Shown here piece after piece: positions 54,001-57,000 of a stretch of 64,000 bases of DNA; the stretch's first letter is position 1; each line of letters starts with the position of its first letter. The stretch covers positions 1,035,353 to 1,099,352 of the forward strand of contig CM000431.1 of the NCBI GenBank assembly GCA_000165345.1. Direction: 5' to 3'. The position numbers were made by a program.

Positions 54001-57000
54001 CCAAACTTATATGAATAGTCGTAGGCGGACTTTATTAACGTGTGAGCTTCATCAGATCCAGATGGATAGGTTCTCATTCTGTCTTCAAGTAGCAATCTAA
54101 GTTCACTCAAATTAAGGCATTTTATTCCGTTTAACTCTAAATTTTGGGTAAGAATCAACTCATAAGATAAAAGAATAAAGTTGCATTGGTAAATAATTTA
54201 ATTTTTGAAAATAAAACTAGTAATTAATATTCCTCTTACGGAATTAAACCGAAAATAATAGGTAAATATATTGAAGCCTTGCAACTCTATAACAAAATTA
54301 CCGAACATACCTTTTCCAAACTCTAATTTTTCGATATCAAAATTATCATCTGACATCCTTATATATTATTTAAAAAAAATAAATCAATTTTTTAATAAAT
54401 TTCTTTAATATTTAGCGCTGAATGTACAATTATCTTTTTTTTTTTTTTTTTTTTTTTTTGATTGATTACAATCATTAATGTAACAGATTTTTGTATGTAA
54501 AAGAATGAAGGTAAGTTAATTGACATTTTTAATTTTAAATATTTCATGTTATTAGGTTGCAGTGATTGGATGTTGCCATGGCGAACTCAATCGGTTATAT
54601 ATGGAAGTGGAGAAATATGAAAATGAGAAAAATGAAAAAGTTGATTTAATATTATGCTGTGGTGATATGCAAACAATAAGAGACGAAAATGACTTACAAG
54701 ATATGGCAGTTAAATCGCATAGATCGAAAAAAGGAGATTTTTGGGAATATTATGAAGGATTAAAAAAAGCCCCTAAATTGACTATTTTTATTGGTGGGAA
54801 TCATGAGACTCCAAATGTTTTGATTCCACTTTATTATGGAGGATGGGTGGCTCCAAACATTTTTTATCTGGGTAGTTCTGGAGTTATTCGAGTTGGAGAT
54901 GTTAGAGTTGCAGGTATTTCAGGTATTTATAAAAATTATGACCATTTTAGAGGTTATTATGAATCAAAACCATTTACTGAAGAAAGCAAAAGGAGCTGGT
55001 ATCATATTAGATGGCTTGAAATTCAGAAATTGTTACTTATTGAGAATATAAAATCCAACTTTTTAGGTTCTACTGAGTCTAGAAAAGTAGATGTGATGAT
55101 TTCTCATGATTGGCCAAATGGGATAGAAAGATTTGGAAACCTAAATTATCTTATAAGAAGAAAGCCGTATCTCAAAGAAGATATTGAATTAGGCAGGCTT
55201 GGAATTCCTGGTTGTATTGAACTCATTGAACATTTAAGGCCAACATTCTGGTTCTCAGGCCATCACCACTGTTTCTTTGACGCTTCAATAGAATTTGAGA
55301 ATCAACTATATTCATCTGAATTTAGAGCAATTGACAAGTTTAAAAATTCAAATTCGCCAGTAAGATATTTTGATATAAACAGTAATAAAAACGATGTTCG
55401 TATTTATCTAGATTTTGAGTGGCTAACGATACTTAGATCTGTTAAAGCAAATATTCCAAAAGGAAATTTTACAATAGACAAAAATTCAATTCCAAAATTA
55501 AGTGGGCCAACCAAATCTGATATTGATGCTATATATAAAAATCTTAAAGAAGTAATTGGGGACTTTGATGAAAATCACTACGAATGGCCTCTATGGGGCC
55601 AAGCAAATGGAAATTTTAAAAATTTACAAGATCAATATAATTTTATTAACAGAATTATTGAATAAATTTATCCATTTAATAAATTATCTATCATAAGCTT
55701 TCAAATTGGCACTATTATAATATTTTTTCAATTACAATATTGTGTATTAAAATTATTACCCGTTCTAAATTGGCGTATTTATTATCATTATTGTTCAAAT
55801 AACTAAATACTATCGATTTTCATAGTAGTAAAAGAAAGATTTCTTATACATTACATTCAATAGAATTAAAAATCATCTCTGAAGTTAATGCTTTACTTTC
55901 ACTAAGTTAAATTCGCAATTAACAAGAAATTTCTTTATACAACAAAACGACTTAAATCAAGTAATATTTGTTGCAAAGAATAATTTTACTATTAAGCTTA
56001 TAAAATATTCAAAAACATGAATATTTAGCTTCTAAGGTAAATAATTTTCAAATACTAAAGCCTAAATATTGGTAAAGTTTTGTATTAAGTGTTTTAAAGA
56101 ATGCAAACTAAGCTTTCAAGTACACTCAGCTCGGCTCTCCTTAATCATTTGATTCTATATATTAAACAAATATTGTCAAACTATTTTAAAACGTTTAATA
56201 CATAAACATCCAATGTTTAACTGTTTATACTGCAGGAGATTTTCATATCTAAATTACGAAGCTCCGCAATAGATTGCACCAAAAATGAAGCTTTGCACGC
56301 TTTAAATGGCGACTGCGTAAACAAAGCAAGAATAACTTGCTCATAAGTAGAAATTTTTTTTCACAAAGTACTTAATTATTAGGTATTTTACATTTTATCG
56401 GGAAAATTTCTAAATGCAATAAGCTATAAACCATCAATTTAATTATAAAATTTAATCGGATGAATTAAAGTTATTTTGTACGAAATATATTAGTTTCAAA
56501 ATGAATATTTAATATTATCAACTTTTTTGTACATTAACAATACTTGCATAAAAAAAATAATTAGATTCAATATTAACTACCCCACACTTGGCGGGAATGT
56601 CAACCCCACACATTCTGCATATTTTTTGATTGCAAGTGGCAACAATAAACAACATTAAATATCAAGAATAAATTTAGGTCAAAAATAACTATCAAGTTAA
56701 AGTCTATTTTTATTCTATACATTTGATAATATTGTTAGATTGAGGTAACATGTATTGCGCAACTCCCAAAGAGCAATAACAATAATAAACTAAATTCTTT
56801 AGTAGAAATTAATATAAAACAGTGAATAATTCAAGTAGGAAAGAAAATGACCTCAAAAATAATTGACAACTTCGATAATACCTGTTTATCAACGCCTAGG
56901 CGTTCCAGAAATATCGAAGATGAAACAATAGCATTGGCTCCGGATGCTCGAAGAGCAGTTCGTAAACAATTTAATATTGAGTTTATTAATACTAGGGAGT

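What the first reader, a model, noticed from the sequence alone, without database searches (positions are those of the whole stretch)
54505..54555. Dbr1 start codon separated from the rest of the gene by a 45-nt intron
The Dbr1 ORF has no in-frame ATG (the track uses GTG, and TAG lies immediately upstream). The motif aagaATGAAG|GTAAGTTAATTG...TTATTAG|GTTGCAGTGATTGGATGTTGCCATGGC has a consensus donor and a pyrimidine-rich acceptor. Splicing it yields MK-VAVIGCCHGELN, the conserved Dbr1 N-terminus (compare yeast MTKLRIAVQGCCHGQLN). So the gene encoding the intron-lariat debranching enzyme itself carries a micro-intron after codon 2.
Basis: partly seen in the sequence, partly recalled or inferred. 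Interest (0 to 1): 0.5.

Follow-up and report, generated by a model that had tools for sequence, protein, structure and literature searches.

The report
Known start-codon intron in Cryptosporidium Dbr1
The Cryptosporidium parvum gene for the lariat-debranching enzyme Dbr1 does have a 45-base intron right after its second codon, but this is an ordinary intron that current public gene models already include.

Summary
ATGAAG (54505-54510) is followed by a 45-nt GTAAGT...TTATTAG intron (54511-54555). Exon 2 starts at 54556, in frame, directly after a TAG. Splicing gives a 371-aa Dbr1 beginning MKVAVIGCCHG, the usual N-terminus of this enzyme family.

The window is Cryptosporidium parvum. The spliced product is identical, residue for residue, to deposited proteins QOY42785.1, WKS77183.1 and WRK31674.1. 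Models of 370-413 aa with the same type of N-terminus (MK/MR + [IV]AV-GCCHG) exist for seven further Cryptosporidium species or genotypes, including C. hominis and C. muris.

Orthologous loci in C. canis, C. felis, C. xiaoi and C. muris all carry an intron at the same place, with diverged sequence and lengths of 45, 50, 76 and 71 nt. So does Theileria equi (43 nt). A second C. parvum assembly has a 1-nt indel inside the intron.

The rival starts (GTG 54562, ATG 54601) are not conserved, and codons 3-17 are under purifying selection. By chance the full arrangement appears in 3 of 20,000 shuffles. The neighbouring Rpb4 gene has 47- and 52-nt introns, so the size is typical here.

Verdict: a real intron, correctly interpreted, already known and ordinary. 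I could not examine spliced reads directly.

The parts
54505..54510 (+). Exon 1 of Dbr1: start codon plus one codon (ATG AAG = Met-Lys), with A at -3
   Evidence: ATGAAR/ATGAGG at the homologous place in C. canis, C. felis, C. xiaoi and C. muris, and ATGAAT in T. equi.
54511..54555 (+). 45-nt phase-0 GT-AG spliceosomal intron (donor GTAAGT 54511-54516; acceptor TTATTAG ending 54555). Read through without splicing, it hits a stop at codon 5
   Evidence: It is 44 nt in another C. parvum assembly because of a T5->T4 indel. Orthologous introns are 45, 50, 76, 71 and 43 nt.
54529..54533 (+). Candidate branch-point motif TTAAT (branch A at 54532, 23 nt from the 3' splice site). This is an inference only
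   Evidence: a YTNAY candidate. A TTAAT or CTAAT lies 20-28 nt from the 3' end in C. canis, C. felis and C. xiaoi. The motif is common in AT-rich DNA, so the evidence is weak.
54556..55665 (+). Exon 2 of Dbr1 (codons 3-371 plus the TAA stop). It encodes the metallophosphoesterase motifs, starting with VAVIGCCHG
   Evidence: Its translation equals the 2004 'partial' model EAK89231.1.
54562..54564 (+). GTG used as a start by prokaryote-style ORF callers. It is not a real start
   Evidence: and the Logan 367-aa calls. The codon reads GTA, GTT and GTA in C. canis, C. xiaoi and C. muris.
54601..54603 (+). First in-frame ATG of exon 2 (Met18), used as the start in the older 354-aa models. It is not the real start
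   Evidence: It is not conserved: the first exon-2 ATG is at codon 38 in C. canis, C. felis and C. xiaoi, at 21 in C. muris and at 108 in T. equi.
54357..54504 (.). 148-bp divergent intergenic and 5'-leader region shared with Rpb4. It contains a T25 tract (54435-54459) and two ATGTAA minimal uORFs (54478, 54495)
   Evidence: The T tract is shorter in the other C. parvum assembly.

Best explanation
This is the 5' end of the Cryptosporidium parvum DBR1 gene (RNA lariat debranching enzyme). The gene has two exons.

Exon 1 contributes only Met-Lys (54505-54510). A 45-nt U2-type GT-AG intron (54511-54555, phase 0) is removed by the spliceosome. Exon 2 (54556-55665) supplies the rest. The product is a 371-aa metallophosphoesterase whose first beta-strand and metal-binding motif I (VAVIGCCHG) begin at residue 3.

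Shown here: the sequence features, the exact match to deposited spliced models, conservation of the intron position together with loss of intron sequence and length conservation, and purifying selection on codons 3-17.

Inferred: actual removal of the intron from the mRNA (I saw no reads), the branch point, and the transcription start.

The intron is an ordinary 5'-proximal intron of an intron-poor genome. There is no evidence that its presence in DBR1 has any regulatory meaning.
For: Identity of the gene:
- phmmer E = 5e-54 to E. histolytica Dbr1 structures, aligned from query residue 3. GCCHG aligns to GCVHG, and the GDMQT, GGNHE, SHDWP and SGH-H motifs align as well. Pfam Metallophos 1.5e-11.

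Exact deposited model:
- The window's spliced product equals P0122 (QOY42785.1 CPATCC_001468, WKS77183.1, WRK31674.1).
- KAL5369788.1 occupies a 1160-nt gene range for a 1116-nt CDS, which means a 44-nt intron.

Conservation:
- ATG + 1 codon | GT...AG | [AG]TTGC at the same site in C. canis (45 nt), C. felis (50), C. xiaoi (76), C. muris (71) and T. equi (43). Four of these five lengths are not multiples of 3 (C. canis, 45 nt, is), and every intron stops unspliced read-through.
- In the alignment the exons align and the introns do not.

Within-species indel:
- A 1-nt indel lies inside the intron.

Selection:
- In codons 3-17 there are 70 synonymous against 20 nonsynonymous codon differences. 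Nucleotide differences by codon position are 28/12/75.

No alternative start:
- In every species there is no in-frame ATG between the nearest upstream stop and exon 2.

N-terminus:
- M-[KR]-[IV]-A-[VI]-x-GC-x-HG in nearly all 120 best hits.

Chance:
- 3 of 20,000 shuffles.

Local norm:
- The Rpb4 introns are 174, 52 and 47 nt with GTATGT or GTAAGT donors (product confirmed).

Literature:
- C. parvum has 688 introns, mean length 99 bp and 22% G+C, in 10.8% of genes (PMC4637869).
Against: - No transcript read or cDNA spanning 54510^54556 was examined here. An exact search for the spliced junction in metagenome contigs found nothing, but that collection is mostly DNA, so the result is uninformative.
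- The RNA-seq support comes from a general statement in a paper, not from a gene-specific record, and that paper's supplements were not available.
- Some of the orthologue annotations may have been transferred from one another, so the deposited models are not fully independent. The sequence features are independent.
- Several deposited models still disagree (354, 367, 369 and 332 aa).
Confidence: 0.95

Rival explanations
1. There is no intron. Translation starts at the first in-frame ATG of the long ORF (54601, Met18 of the spliced protein) and gives a 354-aa protein, as in several deposited models.
For: 354-aa models exist for C. hominis TU502 (XP_666516.1), C. ubiquitum (XP_028875588.1) and C. 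tyzzeri (TRY52344.1).
Against: - The product would lack beta-strand 1 and motif I (GCCHG), which aligns to the GCVHG motif of E. histolytica Dbr1.
- The ATG is not conserved: the first exon-2 ATG lies at codon 38, 38, 38, 21 and 108 in the other species.
- The 15 codons upstream of it are conserved at the protein level, with mostly synonymous change.
Confidence: 0.02
2. There is no intron. Translation starts at a non-AUG codon, GTG at 54562, and gives a 367-aa protein, as the mechanical ORF track has it.
For: The table-11 ORF list and the Logan prokaryote-style gene calls start there.
Against: - This is a eukaryotic nuclear gene.
- The GTG reads GTA, GTT and GTA in C. canis, C. xiaoi and C. 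muris.
- The two codons upstream of it (GTT GCA; ATT GCN in the other species) are conserved as [IV]-A.
- A canonical ATG with A at -3 and a consensus donor sits 51 nt upstream.
Confidence: 0.01
3. A different splice is used: donor at 54515 (GTTAAT) and acceptor CAG ending at 54562. This gives MKVMIGCCHG..., one residue shorter.
For: It is the only other GT..AG pair from the ATG at 54505 that stays in frame and keeps the catalytic motif.
Against: - The donor is weak compared with the GTAAGT 4 nt upstream.
- It would delete the conserved [IV]-A-V codons, which are maintained in all species.
- The deposited models and all orthologues use the 54511/54555-type junction.
Confidence: 0.02

Closest known systems
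Deposited C. parvum gene model CPATCC_001468 (QOY42785.1; also WKS77183.1 and WRK31674.1) and its 370-413-aa Cryptosporidium orthologue models
   Same: The protein is identical to the window's spliced product, so the exon 1 / intron / exon 2 structure is the same. Synteny (kinase, Rpb4, Dbr1) is conserved in C. canis, C. felis, C. xiaoi and C. muris.
   Different: Nothing differs. The window is this gene. Other deposited versions are the incomplete ones: 369-aa 'partial' EAK89231.1, the 354-aa internal-ATG models, and 332 aa.
Dbr1 RNA lariat debranching enzymes (E. histolytica structures 4PEF, 5K71, 5UKI; animal DBR1)
   Same: A metallophosphoesterase core with Cys in motif I (GCxHG), plus the GD, GNHE, SHDWP and GH-H motifs. 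The N-terminus has two residues before beta-strand 1.
   Different: The protein is short (371 aa). Its C-terminal domain matches Pfam DBR1 (PF05011) only weakly (E = 0.023, below the cutoff), whereas T. equi scores 6.8e-15. It lacks the long acidic tail of animal DBR1.
5'-proximal 'start-codon' introns of intron-poor eukaryotes, such as many yeast ribosomal-protein genes (from my own knowledge of the 5' bias of retained introns; not tested here)
   Same: A very short first exon (ATG plus one codon), a strong consensus donor, and a short AT-rich intron in a genome where about 11% of genes have introns (PMC4637869).
   Different: Nothing substantive. I did not measure a 5' bias for Cryptosporidium introns genome-wide.
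Theileria equi DBR1 intron 1
   Same: A phase-0 intron directly after codon 2 (ATGAAT|gtaagt...cag|ATAGCGGTG), 43 nt long, at the homologous position.
   Different: T. equi has three further introns that Cryptosporidium lacks. Animals (Tribolium, Pimephales) lack the codon-2 intron and instead have their first intron after about codon 65.

Membership tests
Dbr1 (RNA lariat debranching enzyme) | Significant, near full-length sequence similarity to experimentally characterised Dbr1 | tested here: met
   E = 5e-54, query 3-315 against E. histolytica Dbr1 residues 9-300. The best non-Cryptosporidium database hits are all annotated lariat debranching enzymes, at 40-46% identity.
Dbr1 (RNA lariat debranching enzyme) | Metallophosphoesterase motif I with Cys in place of the usual Asp (G-C-x-H-G), directly after beta-strand 1 | tested here: met
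   VAVIGCCHG aligns to IAIVGCVHG. It is conserved in all Cryptosporidium species and in T. equi.
Dbr1 (RNA lariat debranching enzyme) | The remaining metallophosphoesterase motifs (GD, GNHE, SHDWP, GH-H) | tested here: met
   CCGDMQT, GGNHE, SHDWP and SGHHH align to the E. histolytica counterparts. Pfam Metallophos matches over 1-241, E = 1.5e-11.
Dbr1 (RNA lariat debranching enzyme) | Dbr1-specific C-terminal domain (Pfam PF05011) | tested here: inconclusive
   E = 0.023, 15.5 bits against a cutoff of 26, residues 257-336. The phmmer alignment to EhDbr1 does continue to residue 315.
Dbr1 (RNA lariat debranching enzyme) | 2'-5' phosphodiesterase (debranching) activity | not testable with these tools
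   Needs an enzyme assay or complementation of a dbr1 mutant.
U2-type GT-AG spliceosomal intron | GT...AG termini with a consensus donor and a pyrimidine-rich acceptor | tested here: met
   GTAAGT ... TTATTAG. The same donor class is used in the Rpb4 introns next door and in the orthologues.
U2-type GT-AG spliceosomal intron | Removal restores a conserved reading frame that cannot otherwise be initiated | tested here: met
   No in-frame ATG lies between the upstream stop and exon 2 in any of six species. The spliced N-terminus is the family norm.
U2-type GT-AG spliceosomal intron | Evolves as non-coding sequence at a conserved position (length changes that are not multiples of 3, in-frame stops, sequence divergence) | tested here: met
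   Lengths are 45, 44, 45, 50, 76, 71 and 43 nt. There is a 1-nt indel within C. parvum. Every intron stops unspliced read-through. The introns are unalignable while the flanking exons align.
U2-type GT-AG spliceosomal intron | Branch-point motif (YTNAY) about 18-40 nt upstream of the 3' splice site | tested here: inconclusive
   Candidates are TTAAT (23 nt) and TTGAC (32 nt). Such motifs are expected by chance in DNA with 16% G+C.
U2-type GT-AG spliceosomal intron | Absent from mature mRNA (junction reads or cDNA) | not testable with these tools
   Only indirect evidence: QOY42785.1 carries the IOWA-ATCC locus tag (CPATCC_001468), and the paper on that annotation states that its introns are 100% RNA-seq supported (PMC8744675). 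The junction search in metagenome contigs found nothing.

The most novel reading that the evidence does not exclude
The codon-2 intron is an ancestral apicomplexan intron, shared with Theileria equi. On this reading it survived the massive intron loss of Cryptosporidium because it is needed for DBR1 expression. It might act through intron-mediated enhancement, or through a feedback loop in which debranching or splicing capacity is sensed through the gene's own tiny intron. My data show only the shared position in two apicomplexan lineages and its absence in two animals. They say nothing about function, and parallel gain or chance retention is not excluded.
Probability: 0.05. Interest if true: 0.4.

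Novelty: already known. Interest (0 to 1): 0.1.

Why it matters
It matters mainly for annotation quality. Public records for this one gene still disagree: 371 aa spliced, 369 aa 'partial', 367 aa GTG start, 354 aa internal ATG, and 332 aa. The truncated versions lack the metal-binding motif I and would be read as a dead enzyme. The case shows how a 6-nt first exon defeats ORF-based and some eukaryotic gene callers in a compact, intron-poor genome. It also shows that the first-stage reader can recover such exons from sequence alone. It reveals no new biology. An intron in DBR1 is normal for eukaryotes, and this one is already in the current C. parvum annotation.

Tried and rejected
- **Spliced-junction search.** An exact search for the junction (ATGAAG+GTTGCAGTG..., 32 nt) in metagenome contigs gave 0 hits. 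That collection is mostly DNA, so the result is uninformative.
- **Literature search 'Cryptosporidium' + 'debranching'.** In the two hit papers I opened, the word refers to T7 endonuclease in library preparation. Judging by their titles, most of the others concern carbohydrate metabolism. I found nothing on this gene.
- **Paper supplements.** None are held for PMC8744675, and the one for PMC4637869 does not mention Dbr1. I therefore have no gene-specific RNA-seq statement.
- **Rfam scan of the whole window.** No family reached threshold, so no known structured RNA overlaps the region.
- **Alternative splice combinations from the ATG at 54505.** Three delete the catalytic motif. One (54515..54562) uses a weak donor and deletes conserved codons. 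All were rejected.
- **GTG and internal-ATG starts.** Rejected because they are not conserved.
- **An ancient pan-eukaryotic intron position.** Rejected for animals: Tribolium and Pimephales have an uninterrupted first exon of about 65 codons.

Full report
**What is in the sequence**

ATGAAG occupies 54505-54510. It is followed by GTAAGTTAATTGACATTTTTAATTTTAAATATTTCATGTTATTAG (54511-54555; 45 nt, 15.6% G+C). Then comes GTTGCAGTGATTGGATGTTGCCATGGC from 54556.

Exon 2 is in frame with the mechanical ORF 54562..55665. The TAG at 54553-54555 both closes that frame upstream and supplies the acceptor AG. Joining 54510 to 54556 gives a stop-free 371-codon CDS that begins MKVAVIGCCHGELN.

One detail of the finding is inexact. 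The ORF does contain in-frame ATGs (54601, 54667, 54703 and further on). None of them lies upstream of the catalytic motif.

**Is it more than chance?**

I made 20,000 dinucleotide-preserving shuffles of the 199 nt between the divergent neighbour's ATG and exon 2.
- The full arrangement (ATG, open exon 1, GTAAGT donor, YAG acceptor exactly at the boundary) appeared 3 times.
- A relaxed GTRNGT..AG version appeared 31 times.
- Any GT..AG appeared 2,183 times.

The consensus donor therefore carries most of the signal in a single sequence. The comparative data below carry the rest.

**What the gene is and where it comes from**

The spliced product matches the Entamoeba histolytica Dbr1 crystal structures at E = 5e-54, aligned from residue 3. 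The GCxHG, GDMQT, GGNHE, SHDWP and SGH-H motifs all line up. It also matches Pfam Metallophos.

The protein database search identifies the organism as Cryptosporidium parvum. The best hit is a 371-aa 'Dbr1p-like RNA lariat debranching enzyme' at 100% coverage.

**The spliced model is already public**

The window's spliced product is identical, residue for residue, to P0122 (QOY42785.1 with locus tag CPATCC_001468, WKS77183.1, WRK31674.1).

Models of 370-413 aa with an MK/MR + [IV]AV-GCCHG N-terminus are also deposited for C. hominis, C. meleagridis, C. sp. chipmunk genotype I, C. canis, C. felis, C. xiaoi and C. muris.

Another C. parvum assembly lists the gene over 1160 nt for a 1116-nt CDS, which means a 44-nt intron.

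Older or automatic records are the incomplete ones:
- The 2004 Iowa II entry EAK89231.1 is flagged 'partial' and begins exactly at 54556 (VAVIGCCHG).
- C. hominis TU502, C. ubiquitum and C. tyzzeri carry 354-aa models that start at the internal ATG.
- Prokaryote-style calls on Logan contigs start at the GTG (367 aa).

[quoted passage not shown] That is the only transcript-level support I can cite, and it is not specific to this gene.

**Comparative test**

I fetched the orthologous loci of C. canis, C. felis, C. xiaoi and C. muris. Synteny (kinase, Rpb4, Dbr1) is conserved in all four.

For each species, exactly one GT..AG intron reproduces the deposited protein, and it always lies after codon 2:

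| Species | Exon 1 | Intron length | Donor ... acceptor | Start of exon 2 |
|---|---|---|---|---|
| C. canis | ATGAAA | 45 nt | gtaagt ... tttag | ATTGCAGTA |
| C. felis | ATGAAG | 50 nt | gtaggt ... tctag | ATTGCTGTG |
| C. xiaoi | ATGAGG | 76 nt | gtaagt ... ttaag | ATTGCAGTT |
| C. muris | ATGAAG | 71 nt | gttagt ... tatag | ATTGCTGTA |

Further points:
- The lengths in C. felis, C. xiaoi and C. muris are not multiples of three, and every intron stops unspliced read-through.
- No species has an in-frame ATG between the nearest upstream stop and exon 2.
- In the DNA alignment the exons align and the introns do not.
- Within C. parvum, a second assembly has a 1-nt indel (T5 to T4) inside the intron. 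That is tolerable only if the stretch is non-coding. A homopolymer sequencing error cannot be excluded.

**Rival start sites**

The codons that an unspliced model would leave untranslated (codons 3-17) are under clear purifying selection. Across species pairs there are 70 synonymous against 20 nonsynonymous codon differences. Nucleotide differences by codon position are 28, 12 and 75.

The GTG at 54562 reads GTA, GTT and GTA in three other species. The first ATG of exon 2 wanders between codons 16, 21, 38 and 108. Starting at Met18 would also remove beta-strand 1 and the Cys/His of motif I.

From the ATG at 54505, only one other in-frame splice keeps the motif. It runs 54515..54562 and gives MKVMIGCCHG. 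It needs a weak GTTAAT donor and deletes the conserved [IV]-A-V codons.

Nearly all of the 120 best Dbr1 hits, from insects to vertebrates, begin M-[KR]-[IV]-A-[VI]-x-G-C-x-H-G. The spliced N-terminus is therefore the family norm.

**How unusual is it?**

It is not unusual.
- C. parvum has about 688 annotated introns in 10.8% of its genes, with a mean length of 99 bp and 22% G+C (PMC4637869).
- The Rpb4 gene 148 bp away on the other strand (53688..54356) has three introns of 174, 52 and 47 nt with GTATGT, GTAAGT and GTAAGT donors. I solved these by enumeration and confirmed the product with Pfam RNA_pol_Rpb4 at 1.7e-13.
- A 45-nt GTAAGT intron is therefore typical for this locus.
- A Dbr1 gene with introns is normal too. 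T. equi DBR1 has four, and the beetle and fish genes are interrupted.

**A small extra result**

The T. equi gene has its first intron at the identical position: ATGAAT|gtaagt...cag|ATAGCGGTG, 43 nt, phase 0. Tribolium and Pimephales have an uninterrupted first exon of about 65 codons.

The position may therefore be ancestral to Apicomplexa, but only two lineages were sampled.

**Mechanism**

The pre-mRNA starts somewhere in the 148-bp divergent promoter region, which contains a T25 tract at 54435-54459. The spliceosome removes 54511-54555, probably using a TTAAT or TTGAC branch site 23 or 32 nt from the 3' splice site. That branch site is an inference, and the motif is weak evidence in AT-rich DNA.

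Translation starts at the ATG at 54505, which has A at -3. If the transcript begins far enough upstream, two ATGTAA mini-uORFs (54478, 54495) precede the start.

Shown here: the sequence anatomy, its conservation and the selection on it. Inferred: splicing in vivo, the branch point and the transcription start.

**Verdict**

The feature is already known and ordinary.

Its remaining value is as a curation note, because several public models of this gene are still truncated. The idea that the intron has a special link to Dbr1 function has no support in these data.

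Noticed in passing
window 53688-54356 (- strand): RNA polymerase II subunit Rpb4 gene, 131 aa, divergent from Dbr1 (ATG to ATG 148 bp). It has three introns: 54310..54137 (174 nt, GTATGT), 53961..53910 (52 nt, GTAAGT) and 53824..53778 (47 nt, GTAAGT). A second enumeration solution differs only in the third intron (53801..53755) and looks worse.
   Followed up: yes
window 54435-54459: A T25 homopolymer lies in the shared Rpb4/Dbr1 promoter region. The tract is shorter in the other C. parvum assembly (L005), so it is either length-polymorphic or an assembly artefact.
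   Followed up: partly
window 54478-54483 and 54495-54500: Two ATGTAA 'start-stop' mini-uORFs lie just upstream of the Dbr1 ATG. Whether they are transcribed depends on the unknown transcription start.
   Followed up: no
window 55273-55512 (Dbr1 residues 257-336): The Cryptosporidium Dbr1 C-terminal domain matches Pfam DBR1 (PF05011) only weakly (E = 0.023, 15.5 bits, cutoff 26), whereas Theileria equi scores 6.8e-15. The precomputed Pfam column lists only Metallophos for the full-length Cryptosporidium orthologue models. The lariat-recognition domain is divergent and short.
   Followed up: partly
L006 1501-2836 (Theileria equi); L007 and L008 (Tribolium, Pimephales): T. equi DBR1 shares the phase-0 intron after codon 2 (43 nt) and has three more short introns (41, 33 and 34 nt). 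The beetle and the fish both lack it, and both diverge from colinearity after about codon 65 (FYK|gtaa), which suggests a shared animal intron position.
   Followed up: partly
window 55666-56846: About 1.18 kb downstream of Dbr1 has no called gene. That is long for a genome with mean intergenic spacing of about 550-590 bp. In C. xiaoi and C. muris a 630-634-aa minus-strand gene follows Dbr1 directly (L003 4213-6105, L004 4481-6385), whereas C. parvum, C. canis and C. felis have a 200-203-aa plus-strand gene further on. There is no Rfam hit anywhere in the window.
   Followed up: no
window 50818-53073 (- strand): The protein kinase gene upstream is called as 760 aa in the other C. parvum assembly (L005 6292-8574), against 751 aa for the longest ATG ORF in the window listing. 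This is a small start-site or strain difference that I did not examine.
   Followed up: no
window 55480-55482 (Dbr1 residue 326): There is a single amino-acid difference between C. parvum isolates: Gly in the window and QOY42785.1 (...IPKLSGPTKSD...) against Lys in KAL5369788.1 (...IPKLSKPTKSD...).
   Followed up: partly
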